Assembly: GCA_964016885.1 (NCBI GenBank) | Contig: OZ024745.1 | Location: 72,974,001 to 73,038,000, forward strand | From: Eledone cirrhosa | Lineage: Eukaryota | Direction of reading: 5' to 3' | DNA: 64,000 nucleotides | Made by a program: the position numbers and the translations under genes | Notes under the pieces: generated by a model | The model's input: the letters and a program-made list of their open reading frames with translations, nothing else | Told to the model about the DNA's origin: nothing | The model's database searches: none | Part shown: piece after piece, positions 30,343 to 45,564 of the stretch | Numbering within the stretch: the stretch's first letter is position 1 | Layout: every line of letters begins with the position of its first letter

Positions 30343-30609
30343 TAGTAACAAAACTTGTGTTCAAATCTGAGTCACTGAATTTATTGTTAGATTTAGTCCA
30401 TATTTTTACTTCATATTTTTCACCAGGTCTTAAGGGGGTTAATATTATGTTTTCCTTGGTACTTGTTTCATTTATGTAATTATTGCTACCATATTTGTAT
30501 TGAATTAACCATTCACTTCCAGAAGATGCTGTGTTGTCAAATTTCCATTCAATAAAAGCACTATTTGTTGTAACAATTGTAACGATGGCATTAGTTGGTG
30601 GCAATGGAA
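30343..30609 (-). CDS. Tandem FN3 exon R13 (type A)
   Basis: Same splice sites, open frame. Confidence 0.88.
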
Positions 30610-31478
30610 CTGTAAGAAATAAAATAAAACAATATGACTTCACAATGTTATGGGAGTAACCTGCAGTTTGATTATTTACATTATTCTAAAGTAAAAACAT
30701 GATTTTAATACAATAACATTACTTTCAATAATAATGATTAAATATATGAAATCTGATTCTCAGTTTCAGAAACATATAATTTTAATCTAAATTATCAACA
30801 TTTAATCATGTTAACTTTACATCCAATTTTCCATGTTGGCATGGGTTGGACTATTTGTTCTCTCTTTATACAAAATATACTGTCAAAAGAATGATACTAT
30901 TGGTATTCTGTTACATAGACATATGTAGATTTAATATTATATATGAAACATTAAATTAACATTCAAATGAAGACTGTCCACAGAACATTACAGGAGATAT
31001 CATTATCATCACCTTTTAACAACTATTTTTCCATGCTAGTATGGGTTAGACATGTTCAGCTATAAGACAAGCTAGATCAGATGACCATGTCTTGCTCATA
31101 CTGAACTGTCTCTTGCCTGGTTTCTACAGCTGGATGCCCTCCCTAATGCCAACCACCTTTACAGTGTAGACAAGTTGATTTTTGTTGTGACACGTAAAAA
31201 ACTTTACAGTGTGGGCTGGGCACTTTTTTCCACCTAGTTATACCTGTAGATTATGAGATTTTATATGCCAGAGAAAGTGAAAGATATGATGTTCAGCCAC
31301 AAAAACAGAAACACTAAACTGAAAAACATTAACAATAGTTTTGGTTCTTCATTAACTGAAGATTTCGGATCAAATATGAAAAGATTTTTTTCCTAGGTAA
31401 AAGCCATAATATCATATAAAAAATTATCTTTTATAAGCTATTTTAAACATCTTAGAAAGATTCACTTCATATACTTAC

Positions 31479-31745
31479 TAGTAACAAAACTTGTGTTCAA
31501 ATCTGAGTCACTGAATTTATCGTTAGATTTAGTCCATATTTTTACTTCATATTTTTCACCAGGTCTTAAGGGGGTTAATATTATGTTTTCCTTGGTACTT
31601 GTTTCATTTATGTAATTATTGCTACCATATTTGTATTGAATTAACCATTCATTTCCAGAAGATGCTGTGTTGTCAAATTTCCATTCAATAAAAGCACTAT
31701 TTGTTGTAACAATTGTAACGATGGCATTAGTTGGTGGCAATGGAA
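31479..31745 (-). CDS. Tandem FN3 exon R12 (type A)
   Basis: Same splice sites, open frame. Confidence 0.88.
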
Positions 31746-32614
31746 CTGTAAGAAATAAAATAAAACAATATGACTTCACAATGTTATGGGAGTAACCTGC
31801 AGTTTGATTATTTACATTATTCTAAAGTAAAAACATGATTTTAATACAATAACATTACTTTCAATAATAATGATTAAATATATGAAATCTGATTCTCAGT
31901 TTCAGAAACATATAATTTTAATCTAAATTATCAACATTTAATCATGTTAACTTTACATCCAATTTTCCATGTTGGCATGGGTTGGACTATTTGTTCTCTC
32001 TTTATACAAAATATACTGTCAAAAGAATGATACTATTGGTATTCTGTTACATAGACATATGTAGATTTAATATTATATATGAAACATTAAATTAACATTC
32101 AAATGAAGACTGTCCACAGAACATTACAGGAGATATCATTATCATCACCTTTTAACAACTATTTTTCCATGCTAGTATGGGTTAGACATGTTCAGCTATA
32201 AGACAAGCTAGATCAGATGACCATGTCTTGCTCATACTGAACTGTCTCTTGCCTGGTTTCTACAGCTGGATGCCCTCCCTAATGCCAACCACCTTTACAG
32301 TGTAGACAAGGTGATTTTTGTTGTGACACGTAAAAAACTTTACAGTGTGGGCTGGGCACTTTTTTCCACCTAGTTATACCTGTAGATTATGAGATTTTAT
32401 ATGCCAGAGAAAGTGAAAGATATGATGTTCAGCCACAAAAACAGAAACACTAAACTGAAAAACATTAACAATAGTTTTGGTTCTTCATTAACTGAAGATT
32501 TCGGATCAAATATGAAAAGATTTTTTTCCTAGGTAAAAGCCATAATATCATATAAAAAATTATCTTTTATAAGCTATTTTAAACATCTTAGAAAGATTCA
32601 CTTCATATACTTAC

Positions 32615-32881
32615 TAGTAACAAAACTTGTGTTCAAATCTGAGTCACTGAATTTATCGTTAGATTTAGTCCATATTTTTACTTCATATTTTTCACCAGGT
32701 CTTAAGGGGGTTAATATTATGTTTTCCTTGGTACTTGTTTCATTTATGTAATTATTGCTACCATATTTGTATTGAATTAACCATTCATTTCCAGAAGATG
32801 CTGTGTTGTCAAATTTCCATTCAATAAAAGCACTATTTGTTGTAACAATTGTAACGATGGCATTAGTTGGTGGCAATGGAA
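32615..32881 (-). CDS. Tandem FN3 exon R11 (type A)
   Basis: Same splice sites, open frame. Confidence 0.88.
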
Positions 32882-42135: not shown

Positions 42136-42399
42136 TAGTAACAAAACTTTTGTTCAAATATGAGTCACTGAAGTTATTGTTAGATTTAGTCCATATTTTT
42201 ACTTCATATTTTGCACCAGGTCTTAAGGAGGTTAATGTGATTTCCGTGGTACTTGTTGTATTTGTGTAATTATTGCTACCATTTTTGTATTGAATTAACC
42301 ATTCACTTCCAGAAGATGTTGTGTTGTCAAATTTCCATTCAATAGTAGAACTATTTGTTGTAACATTTGTAACGATGGCATTAGTTGGTTTCAATGGAA
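42136..42399 (-). CDS. Tandem FN3 exon R3 (type B, 264 nt)
   Basis: Canonical AG/GT, phase 1-1, open frame. Confidence 0.88.
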
Positions 42400-43718
42400 C
42401 TGTAAGAAATAAAATAAAACAATATGACTTCCTAATGTTATTTTAGAAAGAGAAAGTAATTGAAAGCAAATCAGTTGTGAAAATGCATTTCACAATGGAG
42501 TACTGTTTACAAATAATTAATCATAATGCATTTCACAATGGAGCACTGTTTGAGATAATGAATAGATCACAATATGTCAATCCCTAACTCTAATTTCAAT
42601 GTGTCCCTTTGACACCTTAACCATTATAATGATGGCTTTTGTTCTTGAAAACTTGATAAATCTAATGCATTTCCTACTAAAAACTACTTACTGTCACACT
42701 TTATTTCATGTTTCAGAATCAATACTAAATACTTTTCCTAGTCCCTCCTCTTCAGAACTGCAATCTTTGGAACAATTATCCTGCTTTTCTACCCTACACC
42801 AACTAACATTACAAAGCCAAATTTCCTTCAAATGACACTCTGCTATCTTTAAAACAAAAAGGAAAAAGAAAGCAGGATACATAAATTAATGTAGTCCAAA
42901 ATACACTATGACTAATAATGATCATGGTTGTAAATCCTTTGATCAGAGGTCTGCTAAGCTAGAGCTGACATAGAGCTAAAAACTGCAATTTATCAAATTA
43001 TCAACAACAAAAATATGAACAGCAAAGACCTGGGTTCATCCATTTTTCATGTAAGTAGCAAAGCATAGGAATTTTTTTCTTCAAAATGTTATTATAAGCA
43101 GATGCTGACATTGCTCTTTATACATTTAAATGATACTATTGGTATTCTGTTACATAGACATATGTAGATTTAATATCATATATGAAACATTAAATTAACA
43201 TTCAAATTAAGACTGTCCACAGAACATTACAGGAGATATCATTATCATCACCTTTTAACAACCATTTTTCCATGCTAGTATGGGTTAGACATGTTCAGCT
43301 ATAAGACAAGCTAGATTAGATGACCATGTCTTTCTCATACTGAACTGTCTCTGGCCTGGTTTCTACAGCTGGATGCCCTTCCTAATGCCAACCACCTTTA
43401 CAGTGTAGACAAGGTGCTTTTTGTTGTGACATGTAAAAAACTTTACAGTGTGGGCTGGGCCCTTTTTTCCACCTAGTTATACCTGTATATTATCAGATTT
43501 TATATGTCAGAGAAGGTGAAAGATATGATGTTCTGCCACAAAAAGAGAAACACTATACTGAAAAAACATTAACACTAGTTTTGGTTCTTTGTTAAATGAA
43601 GATTTCGGATCAAATATGGAAAGATTTTTTCCTAGGTAAAAGCCATAATAACATATAAAAAAAAAATCTTCTATAAGCTATTTTAAACATCTTAGAAAGT
43701 TCCACTTCATATACTTAC

Positions 43719-43982
43719 TAGTAACAAAACTTGTGTTCAAATATGAGTTACTGAATTTATTGTTAGATTTAGTCCATATTATTACTTCATATTTTGCACC
43801 AGGTCTTAAGGAGGTTAATGTGATTTCCGTGGTACTTGTTGTATTTGTGTAATTATTGCTACCATTTTTGTATTGAATTAACCATTCACTTCCAGAAGAT
43901 GTTGTGTTGTCAAATTTCCATTCAATAGTAGAACTATTTGTTGTAACATTTGTAACGATGGCATTAGTTGGTTTCAATGGAA
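43719..43982 (-). CDS. Tandem FN3 exon R2 (type B, 264 nt)
   Basis: Canonical AG/GT, phase 1-1, open frame with FN3 W and LxPGxxY motifs. Confidence 0.88.
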
Positions 43983-45300
43983 CTGTAAGAAATAAAATAA
44001 AACAATATGACTTCCTAATGTTATTTTAGAAAGAGAAAGTAATTGAAAGCAAATCAGTTGTGAAAATGCATTTCACAATGGAGTACTGTTTACAAATAAT
44101 TAATCATAATGCATTTCACAATGGAGCACTGTTTGAGATAATGAATAGATCACAATATGTCAATCCCTAACTCTAATTTCAATGTGTCCCTTTGACACCT
44201 TAACCATTATAATGATGGCTTTTGTTCTTGAAAACTTGATAAATCTAATGCATTTCCTACTAAAAACTACTTACTGTCACACTTTATTTCATGTTTCAGA
44301 ATCAATACTAAATACTTTTCCTAGTCCCTCCTCTTCAGAACTGCAATCTTTGGAACAATTATCCTGCTTTTCTACCCTACACCAACTAACATTACAAAGC
44401 CAAATTTCCTTCAAATGACACTCTGCTATCTTTAAAACAAAAAGGAAAAAGAAAGCAGGATACATAAATTAATGTAGTCCAAAATACACTATGACTAATA
44501 ATGATCATGGTTGTAAATCCTTTGATCAGAGGTCTGCTAAGCTAGAGCTGACATAGAGCTAAAAACTGCAATTTATCAAATTATCAACAACAAAAATATG
44601 AACAGCAAAGACCTGGGTTCATCCATTTTTCATGTAAGTAGCAAAGCATAGGAATTTTTTTCTTCAAAATGTTATTATAAGCAGATGCTGACATTGCTCT
44701 TTATACATTTAAATGATACTATTGGTATTCTGTTACATAGACATATGTAGATTTAATATCATATATGAAACATTAAATTAACATTCAAATTAAGACTGTC
44801 CACAGAACATTACAGGAGATATCATTATCATCACCTTTTAACAATCATTTTTCCATGCTAGTATGGGTTAGACATGTTCAGCTATAAGACAAGCTAGATC
44901 AGATGACCATGTCTTTCTCATACTGAACTGTCTCTGGCCTGGTTTCTACAGCTGGATGCCCTTCCTAATGCCAACCACCTTTACAGTGTAGACAAGGTGC
45001 TTTTTGTTGTGACATGTAAAAAACTTTACAGTGTGGGCTGGGCCCTTTTTTCCACCTAGTTATACCTGTAGATTATGAGATTTTATATGTCAGAGAAGGT
45101 GAAAGATATGATGTTCTGCCACAAAAAGAGAAACACTATACTGAAAAAACATTAACACTAGTTTTGGTTCTTTGTTAAATGAAGATTTCGGATCAAATAT
45201 GGAAAGATTTTTTCCTAGGTAAAGCCATAATAACATATAAAAAAAAAATCTTCTATAAGCTATTTTAAACATCTTAGAAAGTTCCACTTCATATACTTAC

Positions 45301-45564
45301 TAGTAACAAAACTTGTGTTCAAATATGAGTTACTGAATTTATTGTTAGATTTAGTCCATATTATTACTTCAGATTTTGCACCAGGTCTTAAGGAGGTTAA
45401 TGTGATTTCCGTGGTACTTGTTGTATTTGTGTAATTATTGCTACCATTTTTGTATTGAATTAACCATTCACTTCCAGAAGATGTTGTGTTGTCAAATTTC
45501 CATTCAATAGTAGAACTATTTGTTGTAACATTTGTAATGCTGGCATTTGTTGGTTCCAATGGAA
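45301..45564 (-). CDS. Tandem FN3 exon R1 (type B, 264 nt, most divergent B copy)
   Basis: tttacag|TTCCA...GTTACTA|gtaagt, phase 1-1. PLEPTNASITNVTTNSSTIEWKF...LRPGAKSEVIIWTKS...SFVT. Confidence 0.88.

What the first reader, a model, noticed from the sequence alone, without database searches (positions are those of the whole stretch)
30343..45564. Two exon types differ almost only by amino-acid changes that switch N-glycosylation sequons
Comparing R13 (A) with R8 (B) by eye gives about 17 nonsynonymous nucleotide differences in 14 codons, one codon indel and only about 1 synonymous change. Type B carries 7-8 N-x-S/T sequons (NVT, NSS, NTT, NGS, NYT, NTT, NKS/NTS; extra NAS in R1 and NFS in R3). 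Type A keeps 2 (NET, NTS), having lost five by separate substitutions (IVT, NSA, NTA, YGS, NYI). The NEK variant in R5 and R10 loses one more. The three variable sites I saw among A copies (S/N, T/K, N/D) are all nonsynonymous. Inference: selection on glycan density gives a patterned BBB-AAAA-B-AAAAA glycan code along the rod. Counts are small, so the dN/dS excess is only suggestive.
Basis: partly seen in the sequence, partly recalled or inferred. Interest (0 to 1): 0.75.

Follow-up and report, generated by a model that had tools for sequence, protein, structure and literature searches.

The report
Amplified FN3 exons, glycan-rich and glycan-poor
A cell-surface receptor gene carries 14 tandem copies of one fibronectin-type-III exon in a sugar-site-rich form and a sugar-site-poor form; the two forms likely diverged under selection on surface glycosylation residues, but their order along the gene comes from recent block duplication, not from a code.

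Summary
R13 (A) and R8 (B) differ by 17 nonsynonymous bases in 14 codons, one codon indel and one synonymous base. B exons carry 7-8 N-x-S/T sequons; A exons carry 2, or 1 in R5 and R10.

Only 5 of the 14 replaced codons switch a sequon. Outgroups show that A lost four sequons and B gained two and lost one.

B exons are copies of the array's first repeat, duplicated together with about 750 nt of the entry intron. A exons are copies of an internal repeat. The BBB-AAAA-B-AAAAA order comes from a 6,114-bp five-exon block duplication with one mismatch in 3,994 bases, so it is history and not a selected pattern.

The evidence for selection is suggestive:
- Pairwise omega is 4.6 (P about 0.09).
- Family-wide maximum-likelihood omega is 2.5 (P=0.017).
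- Nonsynonymous change per site is about twice the intron rate (P=0.0008).
- Sequon switching is about 2.5 times the random expectation (P 0.001-0.06).

The nonsynonymous excess is not specific to the A/B split. I obtained no RNA or glycan-occupancy data.

The gene is likely an R3-type receptor tyrosine phosphatase, and two paralogous arrays lie nearby.

The parts
46946..47168 (-). Non-repeat FN3 exon immediately upstream of the array, with 5 sequons.
   Evidence: ORF and GT donor located. It is collinear with residues 24-98 of relative P0059, which follow a signal peptide. It differs among the three paralogs by 6 changes, all nonsynonymous.
45565..46945 (-). Entry intron (1381 nt) between the non-repeat exon and the first repeat R1.
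   Evidence: Its 3' ~720-750 nt are about 99% identical to the 3' part of the long introns upstream of R2, R3 and R8. The whole intron is about 99% identical to the entry intron of paralog G2 and 97.5% identical to that of G3.
45301..45564 (-). R1, B type, 264 nt, first repeat of the array, 8 sequons.
43983..45300 (-). Long B-type intron (1318 nt) upstream of R2. Its 5' ~620 nt are the common repeat intron and its 3' ~750 nt are copied from the entry intron.
43719..43982 (-). R2, B type, 264 nt, 7 sequons.
42400..43718 (-). Long B-type intron (1319 nt) upstream of R3.
42136..42399 (-). R3, B type, 264 nt, 8 sequons.
41001..41267 (-). R4, A type, 267 nt, 2 sequons.
39865..40131 (-). R5, A type with the NEK variant, 1 sequon.
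38729..38995 (-). R6, A type, 2 sequons.
37593..37859 (-). R7, A type, 2 sequons.
36286..37592 (-). Long B-type intron (1307 nt) upstream of R8.
36022..36285 (-). R8, B type, 264 nt, 7 sequons.
   Evidence: Pfam fn3 E=5.5e-10. AlphaFold2 model with 7 strands and mean pLDDT 72.4.
34887..35153 (-). R9, A type, 2 sequons.
33751..34017 (-). R10, A type with the NEK variant, 1 sequon.
32615..32881 (-). R11, A type, 2 sequons.
31479..31745 (-). R12, A type, 2 sequons.
30343..30609 (-). R13, A type, 2 sequons.
   Evidence: Pfam fn3 E=1.9e-7.
29208..29474 (-). R14, divergent terminal repeat, 267 nt, 5 sequons. Used as an outgroup.
   Evidence: It has near-identical counterparts ending both paralogous arrays.
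31152..36782 (-). Copy 1 of the 6,114-bp higher-order block (R12 to R8).
   Evidence: In-register comparison with +6114: 15 mismatches in 5,631 bases, and 1 mismatch in 32789-36782.
37266..42896 (-). Copy 2 of the 6,114-bp higher-order block (R7 to R3).
   Evidence: Downstream introns of R3 and R8, of R4 and R9, and of R5 and R10 show 0 mismatches.
26043..26168 (-). Likely next exon downstream of the array, the first half of the following FN3 domain.
   Evidence: Match to residues 185-226 of relative P0059. Not examined further.
20859..20990 (-). Likely second half of the following FN3 domain.
   Evidence: Match to residues 228-271 of P0059. Weak Pfam fn3 hit on the ORF 20778-21008.
17089..17271 (-). 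ORF holding a further FN3 exon (N-terminal half of a domain).
   Evidence: Pfam fn3 E=4e-5.

Best explanation
This is a tandem array of 14 one-domain FN3 exons near the 5' end of what is likely an R3-type receptor tyrosine phosphatase gene: the sequon-rich B exons are copies of the array's first repeat, the sequon-poor A exons are copies of an internal repeat, the two types likely diverged under selection on surface Asn/Ser/Thr (glycan) content, and their order reflects recent block duplication.

Shown directly:
- The exon anatomy: phase 1-1, intact AG/GT splice sites, all frames open.
- The origin of B units from the first repeat plus about 750 nt of the entry intron.
- The 6,114-bp five-exon duplication.
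- Two paralogous arrays on the same chromosome.
- The numerical excess of nonsynonymous and sequon-switching changes.

Inferred:
- From an ancestor with about six sequons, the internal-repeat lineage lost four (N12I, N40Y, T46I, T56I) and was then amplified to nine copies.
- The first-repeat lineage moved towards Ser/Thr (5 of its 6 replacements), gained two sequons and lost one.
- The encoded membrane-distal rod would therefore have stretches of dense and of sparse N-glycan cover.
- Array growth would lengthen the ectodomain by about 88 residues per exon.
For: Anatomy:
- 14 exons have the form CAG|TT...A|GTAAGTA, measure 264 or 267 nt, and contain no stop.
- Pfam fn3 matches at E=5.5e-10 and 1.9e-7, with sub-threshold Dep-1 Fn3 hits.
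- The AlphaFold2 model has 7 strands and matches solved FN3 domains at TM 0.7-0.8.

Origin of the two types:
- The last about 130 nt upstream of R2, R3 and R8 match the sequence upstream of R1 and of the first repeat of paralog G2. All A exons, R14 and the G3 repeats share a different upstream sequence.
- MAFFT shows about 720-750 nt of entry intron copied at roughly 99% identity.

Block duplication; introns with 0 mismatches.

Nonsynonymous excess:
- NG86 for R13 against R8 gives dN 0.087, dS 0.019, omega 4.6.
- Minimum-event counts over the 23 internal repeats of the three arrays give 48 nonsynonymous events on 210 sites, 6 synonymous on 54 sites and 78 intron events on 597 sites. Nonsynonymous against intron has odds ratio 1.97, P=0.0008. 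For G1 alone the figures are 27 on 210 against 43 on 602, P=0.01.
- The GY+F1X4 codon model on 16 distinct exons gives omega 2.54 against omega=1, 2dlnL=5.7, P=0.017.
- Pooled with the terminal repeats and the upstream exon, the count is 59 nonsynonymous to 6 synonymous, P=0.013.

The exons are not decaying: there are 0 stops although 5% of random changes would make one, and the only exon indel is in frame, against 9 indels (8 of them out of frame) in about 620 nt of intron. 36 of 88 columns are invariant across all arrays.

Sequons:
- 14 of 47 replacement events switch a sequon, against 5.7 expected (P=0.001). The restricted null gives P=0.013.
- B holds 7 sequons against 3.3-3.8 expected from its own composition (P=0.02-0.04). 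A holds 2 against 2.2 expected.
- 5 of the 6 replacements on the B lineage produce Ser or Thr, against 13% expected (P=0.0002, post hoc).

Gene type:
- PTP catalytic exons lie on the same strand, 33-71 kb beyond the window.
- The closest database relatives of the exon include proteins with 18-34 FN3 domains, PTP_tm and a single Y_phosphatase domain.
Against: - The A/B pair alone is not significant. With 1 synonymous change of 18, the binomial P is about 0.09 (my arithmetic).
- Three replaced codons carry two adjacent base changes. If each is counted as one event, P is about 0.16.
- Against the native B flank (intron downstream of R1/R2, 5.8-6.1% diverged from A), nonsynonymous divergence is only 1.5-1.8 times higher (P=0.13 and 0.027).
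- The striking contrast with the intron downstream of R3/R8 (1.1%, P=2e-6) may only reflect gene conversion of that intron.
- The nonsynonymous skew is equally present within types (11 nonsynonymous to 1 synonymous), in the terminal repeats (5 to 0) and in the upstream exon (6 to 0). It therefore does not single out glycosites or the A/B split.
- Mosaic exons such as G2_R1 show recombination, which violates the tree assumed by the codon model.
- Polarity is ambiguous at 6 of the 14 sites.
- All sequon tests are post hoc, on a feature picked by eye from a very large scan.
- The four losses happened once on one lineage and were then multiplied by copying, so the nine A copies are not independent.
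- The link between the array and the PTP exons rests only on shared strand and distance.
Confidence: 0.55

Rival explanations
1. Relaxed constraint plus chance. After amplification the internal repeats became redundant, so surface residues drift and a sequon density far above the compositional expectation decays towards it. The apparent omega above 1 would come from sampling noise, multinucleotide mutations and recombination.
For: - A exons sit exactly at the sequon number expected from their composition (2 against 2.2).
- The amplified G2 internal repeats go down to 0 sequons.
- The pairwise test is not significant.
- 3 of the 14 replaced codons are adjacent double changes. Such changes are reported to cause false inferences of positive selection (10.1101/165969; search listing and start of abstract only).
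- The synonymous rate per site equals the intron rate (0.11 against 0.13, P=0.83).
- The nonsynonymous skew is spread over all exons and ages.
Against: - Pure neutrality predicts nonsynonymous change per site equal to the intron rate. It is about twice that rate (P=0.0008), even though 36 of 88 columns are invariant.
- No stops or frameshifts have accumulated.
- The B lineage gains sequons and Ser/Thr, which drift from a rich starting point does not predict.
Confidence: 0.33
2. One reading: selection on glycan density maintains a positional BBB-AAAA-B-AAAAA glycan code along the rod.
For: The two types are kept distinct although their flanking introns are nearly identical: R3/R8 against A introns show 3-7 mismatches in 620.
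Against: - The single interspersed B (R8) is part of a 6,114-bp block copied with 1 mismatch in 3,994 bases.
- Paralog G2 has one first-type repeat followed by seven internal ones, and G3 has lost its first repeat altogether. No pattern is therefore conserved even among the three copies in one genome.
Confidence: 0.05
3. Artefact or dead DNA: the array is mis-assembled, or it consists of unexpressed pseudo-exons.
For: Units are 98-100% identical, which makes them hard to assemble. No read or RNA evidence could be obtained. No protein of this gene was found by the word-based search.
Against: - All 26 exons of the three arrays keep open frames, splice sites and the FN3 core.
- Units carry diagnostic substitutions in an orderly nested pattern.
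- Relatives in the protein library have the same collinear exons, and one shows its own FN3 amplification.
Confidence: 0.07

Closest known systems
R3-subtype receptor tyrosine phosphatases (PTPRB/VE-PTP, PTPRJ/DEP-1/CD148, PTPRH, PTPRO, PTPRQ; Drosophila Ptp10D)
   Same: - The ectodomain exons seen here are all FN3, with sub-threshold Dep-1 Fn3 hits.
- One set of PTP catalytic exons lies on the same strand downstream, with the HC-SAGVGRTG signature.
- Among single-domain structures, PTPRB, PTPRJ, VE-PTP and Ptp10D score best.
- Database relatives of the exon carry many FN3 domains, PTP_tm and one Y_phosphatase domain.
- Heavy N-glycosylation of these ectodomains is recalled knowledge, not a result of any call.
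   Different: - Here one FN3 exon has been amplified to 14 near-identical copies of two glycosite classes.
- The gene sits in a cluster of three recent paralogs.
- The WPD loop reads WPG.
- The link between the array and the PTP exons has not been shown by a transcript.
CD45 (PTPRC) variable exons A/B/C, and the size-dependent segregation of CD45 and CD148
   Same: A receptor phosphatase whose membrane-distal ectodomain changes in length and glycan load by adding or removing exon-sized modules. Ectodomain size is held to control exclusion from close contacts (10.1101/2023.08.23.554524 and PMC5676914; search listing and start of abstract only).
   Different: CD45 varies by alternative splicing of O-glycan-rich non-FN3 segments (recalled). 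Here the variation is written in the genome as amplified FN3 exons, and splicing is untested.
Intragenic tandem domain arrays evolving in concert (LPA kringle IV-2 copy-number array; titin and tenascin Ig/FN3 exon blocks). Recalled, not checked in any call.
   Same: Domain-sized exon units, introns included, repeated head to tail at near identity. Higher-order blocks and unequal crossing-over or gene conversion are involved.
   Different: Two unit types with a four-fold difference in sequon density and an excess of amino-acid change. I know of no description of that in those arrays. My literature searches found none, but they were narrow.
Glycan-shield turnover in viral envelope proteins (recalled analogy)
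   Same: Substitutions concentrate on sequon Asn and Ser/Thr positions, with repeated gain and loss.
   Different: This is a host cell-surface protein. No antagonist is known, and the signal is far weaker.

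Membership tests
Fibronectin type III domain (Pfam PF00041) | Profile match above the curated cut-off. | tested here: met
   B exon scores 39.8 bits and A exon 31.6 bits against a cut-off of 25. R14 (20.3 bits) is below the cut-off.
Fibronectin type III domain (Pfam PF00041) | Seven-strand beta sandwich fold. 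| tested here: met
   The AlphaFold2 model has 7 strands and mean pLDDT 72.4. Foldseek top hits are FN3 domains at TM 0.7-0.8, with 179 matches at E<=0.001.
R3-subtype receptor tyrosine phosphatase | Ectodomain made only of FN3 repeats. | tested here: inconclusive
   Every coding ORF recognised on this strand of the window is FN3. The full gene model was not built.
R3-subtype receptor tyrosine phosphatase | Single cytoplasmic PTP domain in the same transcript. | tested here: inconclusive
   One set of PF00102 exons covering positions 1-232 lies on the same strand at C5:72902583-72941674. No transcript evidence was obtained.
R3-subtype receptor tyrosine phosphatase | Catalytic motifs: HCxxGxxR(S/T) and the WPD general acid. 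| tested here: inconclusive
   The HC|SAGVGRTG motif is present across an exon junction. The WPD loop reads WPG, with Gly in place of the Asp.
R3-subtype receptor tyrosine phosphatase | Transmembrane helix and juxtamembrane PTP_tm region. | not tested
   Seen only in relatives P0005 and P0006, not looked for in this genome.
Tandem exon amplification with concerted evolution | Head-to-tail units, introns included, at near identity; symmetric intron phase. | tested here: met
   Units of 1136 and about 1580 nt at 94-100% identity. All exons are phase 1-1 with lengths divisible by 3.
Tandem exon amplification with concerted evolution | Array-specific fixed differences and mosaic units, as signs of conversion. 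| tested here: met
   The G1 A-type and the core G2 internal repeats (G2_R2-R6) each share their own residues at columns 4, 19, 26, 28, 59 and 78; G2_R7 and G2_R8 each carry the G1 residue at some of these columns. G2_R1 is B-like in codons 4-19 and A-like from codon 28 on.
Positively selected gene region (omega > 1) | dN/dS significantly above 1. | tested here: inconclusive
   Pairwise omega 4.6, P about 0.09. Maximum-likelihood omega 2.54, P=0.017, ignoring recombination. Nonsynonymous against intron, P=0.0008.
N-glycosylated sites | Sequons actually occupied by glycans. | not testable with these tools
   Only the N-x-S/T motif can be counted.

The most novel reading that the evidence does not exclude
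A receptor phosphatase family tunes the length and the glycan coat of its membrane-distal tip through the genome rather than through splicing. It amplifies single FN3 exons, and diversifying selection drives the copies into glycan-dense and glycan-bare modules. The process is recurrent, because three paralogs in this genome and a relative's protein each carry their own amplification.
Probability: 0.2. Interest if true: 0.6.

Novelty: new member of a known kind. Interest (0 to 1): 0.4.

Why it matters
If the selection signal holds, this locus would be a compact natural experiment on what N-glycan density does to an FN3 rod. The same scaffold exists with 7-8 sequons or with 0-2, in variable copy number, in three recent paralogs. 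That bears on how large glycosylated phosphatase ectodomains set their reach and their exclusion from cell contacts.

As it stands, the firm result is more modest. It is a clear case of exon amplification and concerted evolution, in which an eye-catching pattern of types turns out to be a record of duplication events.

Tried and rejected
Expression, exon inclusion and the assembly remain untested.
- Word-based homologue search with the B exon among longer proteins: 163 candidates, none at E<=0.001.
- Earlier notes of this scan by place, sequence and words: nothing.
- Literature searches for FN3, sequon and phosphatase, and for tandem exon duplication with positive selection: nothing on such arrays.
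- Tandem Repeats Finder does not see the array, because its longest period is 500.
- I rejected the downstream intron of R3/R8 as a neutral clock for the A/B split. R1/R2 introns are 5-6% diverged from A while R3/R8 introns are about 1% diverged, so that intron has probably been converted.
- I rejected the idea that the sequence just upstream of B exons is 13% diverged from A. Homology simply ends about 45 nt upstream of the exon.
- The 43%-identical relative P0059 is too distant to polarise the recent changes.
- An ungapped walk to size the entry-intron copy failed after 50 nt because of a 1-nt indel. The size comes from the MAFFT alignment.

Full report
**What is there.** The window is G000:C5:72974001-73038000 of a 3.0-Gb eukaryotic genome. 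On the minus strand, 14 exons have the form CAG|TT...A|GTAAGTA, so they are phase 1-1. They are 264 or 267 nt long and contain no stops.
- A 14th, divergent repeat (R14, 29208-29474) closes the array.
- Each exon encodes one FN3 domain. Pfam fn3 gives E=5.5e-10 for B and 1.9e-7 for A, with sub-threshold Dep-1 Fn3 hits.
- An AlphaFold2 model of the B exon (19-row family alignment, mean pLDDT 72.4) has seven strands. It matches solved FN3 domains at TM 0.7-0.8.

**Check of the counts.** I dropped the split first codon from all codon analyses.
- R13 and R8 differ at 14 codons by 17 nonsynonymous bases, at one codon by an indel, and at one codon synonymously. That synonymous difference borders the indel and depends on the alignment.
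- NG86 gives S=53.5, N=207.5, dN=0.087, dS=0.019, omega 4.6.
- Sequon counts are 7-8 in the four B exons, 2 in seven A exons, 1 in R5 and R10, and 5 in R14.
- Only 5 of the 14 replaced codons switch a sequon, so the title of the finding overstates the case.

**Where the two types come from.**
- The introns upstream of R2, R3 and R8 are 1307-1319 nt long. All other array introns are 868-869 nt.
- The extra sequence, and the last 130 nt before each B exon, match the intron upstream of R1. That is the entry intron, which links a non-repeat FN3 exon (46946-47168) to the array. About 720-750 nt are copied at roughly 99% identity.
- B units are therefore copies of the first repeat taken together with part of its entry intron. 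A units carry the ordinary internal intron, which R14 also has.

**The block duplication.**
- Window 31152-36782 and 37266-42896 are in register at a distance of 6,114 bp, with 15 mismatches in 5,631 bases. Only one mismatch falls in the 3,994 bases that hold R8-R10 and R3-R5.
- The introns after R3 and R8, after R4 and R9, and after R5 and R10 are identical.
- The single interspersed B is thus part of a very recent five-exon duplication. Before it, the array read BBB-AAAAA.

**Paralogs and relatives.**
- The same chromosome holds two more arrays.
  - G2 lies about 160 kb away and is inverted. It has eight repeats plus a terminal one.
  - G3 lies about 210 kb away and has two repeats plus a terminal one.
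- Their entry introns are about 99% and 97.5% identical to that of G1.
- G2 has one first-type repeat, which is a mosaic: B-like in codons 4-19 and A-like from codon 28 on.
- G3 keeps only six bases of its first repeat.
- The exhaustive protein search with the B exon returned 441 proteins at E<=0.001, none above 43% identity.
  - Two of the six I scanned have 18-34 FN3 domains, PTP_tm and one Y_phosphatase domain.
  - P0059 begins with a signal peptide and is collinear with the upstream exon, one array-type FN3 and the next FN3. This places the array at the membrane-distal end of the protein.
  - P0001 is a five-fold near-perfect repeat of a two-FN3 unit. Amplification therefore recurs in this family.
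- PTP catalytic exons lie on the same strand, 33-71 kb beyond the window.

**Is dN/dS above 1?**
- For the A/B pair alone, 1 synonymous change of 18 against an expected share of 0.205 gives a binomial P of about 0.09. This is my arithmetic.
- Three replaced codons carry two adjacent changes. Counting each as one event gives P of about 0.16. Such changes are reported to mislead selection tests (10.1101/165969; search listing and start of abstract only).
- I counted minimum mutation events per column over the 23 internal repeats of the three arrays. Terminal repeats were set aside, and only gap-free intron columns were used (597 of 638). Per site, the rates are:
  - nonsynonymous 48 events on 210.3 sites = 0.228;
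  - synonymous 6 events on 53.7 sites = 0.112;
  - intron 78 events on 597 sites = 0.131.
- Nonsynonymous change exceeds intron change with odds ratio 1.97, P=0.0008. For G1 alone P=0.01. Synonymous change does not differ from intron change, P=0.83.
- A GY+F1X4 codon model on the 16 distinct internal exons gives omega 2.54 and kappa 2.44. With omega fixed at 1 and kappa scanned from 1 to 4, the fit is worse by 2dlnL=5.7, P=0.017. This model ignores recombination.
- The intron substitution spectrum is nearly unbiased, with 24 transitions among 68 changes.
- Pooling the terminal repeats (5 nonsynonymous, 0 synonymous) and the upstream exon (6 and 0) gives 59 to 6, P=0.013.

**Against a signal specific to the A/B split.**
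- The skew is the same within types: 11 nonsynonymous to 1 synonymous.
- Against the native flank of B (the intron after R1/R2, 5.8-6.1% diverged from A), nonsynonymous divergence is only 1.5-1.8 times higher, P=0.13 and 0.027.
- The large contrast with the intron after R3/R8 (1.1% diverged, P=2e-6) probably reflects conversion of that intron.

**The exons are not decaying.**
- None of the 23 exons has a stop, although 5% of random changes would create one.
- The only exon indel is in frame, while about 620 nt of intron hold nine indels, eight of them out of frame.
- 36 of 88 columns are invariant across all three arrays.

**Sequons.** I polarised the changes with G3 and the terminal repeats.
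- The inferred ancestor of the internal repeats had six sequons: NVT at 12, NGS at 40, NYT at 44, NIT at 47, NIT at 54 and NTS at 84.
- The lineage leading to A and to the G2 internal repeats lost four of them (N12I, N40Y, T46I, T56I) among 8 replaced codons. Simulation gives P=0.006, or 0.025 when changes are confined to the 52 columns that vary anywhere.
- The B lineage gained two (A18S, A28T) among 6 replaced codons, P=0.007 or 0.015 restricted. It lost one by the codon deletion.
- Polarity is ambiguous at 6 of the 14 sites.
- Over all internal repeats, 14 of 47 replacement events switch a sequon against 5.7 expected, P=0.001 or 0.013 restricted. For R13 against R8 the count is 5 of 14 against 1.9, P=0.03 or 0.06 restricted.
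- B holds 7 sequons against 3.3-3.8 expected from shuffling its own residues, P=0.02-0.04. A holds 2 against 2.2 expected.
- Five of the six B-lineage replacements produce Ser or Thr, against 13% expected, P=0.0002 post hoc. N+S+T content is 45-47% in B and 35% in A.
- The split is therefore a broader shift in hydroxyl and amide residues, of which the sequons are a part.
- All these tests were made on a feature chosen by eye, so the nominal P values overstate the evidence.
- The A losses occurred once and were then copied, so the nine A exons are not independent observations.

**Position on the fold.** In the model, the A/B differences lie as follows:
- the linker;
- the end of strand A and the start of strand B;
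- the BC loop;
- the end of strand C;
- strand C' and the C'-E turn;
- strand E;
- the EF loop;
- two further sites in FG/G.

The C-terminal third is almost unchanged. The tool gives no coordinates, so I could not compute solvent exposure.

**Verdict.**
- The best-supported reading is a young, still-growing FN3 exon array in a likely R3-type receptor phosphatase paralog cluster. Its two exon types descend from different positions of the ancestral array.
- Amino-acid change runs at about twice the neutral rate and falls on glycosylation residues more often than chance predicts. This suggests selection on the surface or glycan coat but does not prove it.
- Relaxed constraint after amplification remains a serious rival.
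- The order of types is an imprint of duplication history and not a code.
- Expression, exon inclusion, assembly accuracy and glycan occupancy are all untested here.

Noticed in passing
G000:C5:72902583-72941674 (L004 4198-4461 and 5516-5728; L005 2547-2762 and 8765-8938), minus strand: PTP catalytic-domain exons lie downstream of the array on the same strand. The HC|SAGVGRTG signature is intact. The WPD loop reads WPG, so the general-acid Asp is replaced by Gly, which may mean reduced or altered catalysis.
   Followed up: partly
L003 (G000:C5:72788001-72798000), minus strand, just after the entry-intron acceptor: Paralog G3 keeps the full entry intron and its acceptor. Only the first six bases of the first-repeat exon remain before intron-like sequence resumes, so the first repeat has been deleted there.
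   Followed up: partly
window 46946-47168 (-) and its counterparts in L001 and L003: The non-repeat upstream FN3 exon differs among the three paralogs by six changes, all nonsynonymous, with none synonymous. The 1355 aligned entry-intron sites show 17 changes (Fisher P=0.04).
   Followed up: yes
L001 7022-7288 (+), first repeat of paralog G2: This exon is a mosaic. Codons 4-19 carry the B states and codons from 28 on carry the A/G2 states, which is a sign of gene conversion or crossing-over inside the exon.
   Followed up: partly
library protein P0001 (856 aa): A relative's protein is a five-fold, nearly perfect repeat of a two-FN3 unit homologous to the terminal repeat and its neighbouring domain. 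This would be an independent amplification in the same gene family. Its source is unknown.
   Followed up: no
PF00102 hits on C5 between 72.78 and 73.2 Mb: Only one set of PTP exons was reported near the three paralogous arrays, downstream of G1. G2 and G3 may be partial duplicates without a phosphatase domain. Alternatively, their exons were simply not among the scored candidates.
   Followed up: no
window 200-12000, 47430-47830, 54500-54720, 57880-58450, 60080-60420: Very long TA/TG/CA-type microsatellite tracts, seen as 'YIYIYI' ORFs in all frames, fill much of the introns. GC content is as low as 16%.
   Followed up: no
window 26352-28189 (-), 48292-50629 (-), 52033-54183 (+): LINE-like reverse-transcriptase and endonuclease ORFs lie inside the introns of the gene. 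The copy at 52033-54183 is open over 716 aa.
   Followed up: no
window 45646-45727: A 43-nt unit is repeated 1.9 times in the entry intron. It lies in the part that was copied with the B units.
   Followed up: no
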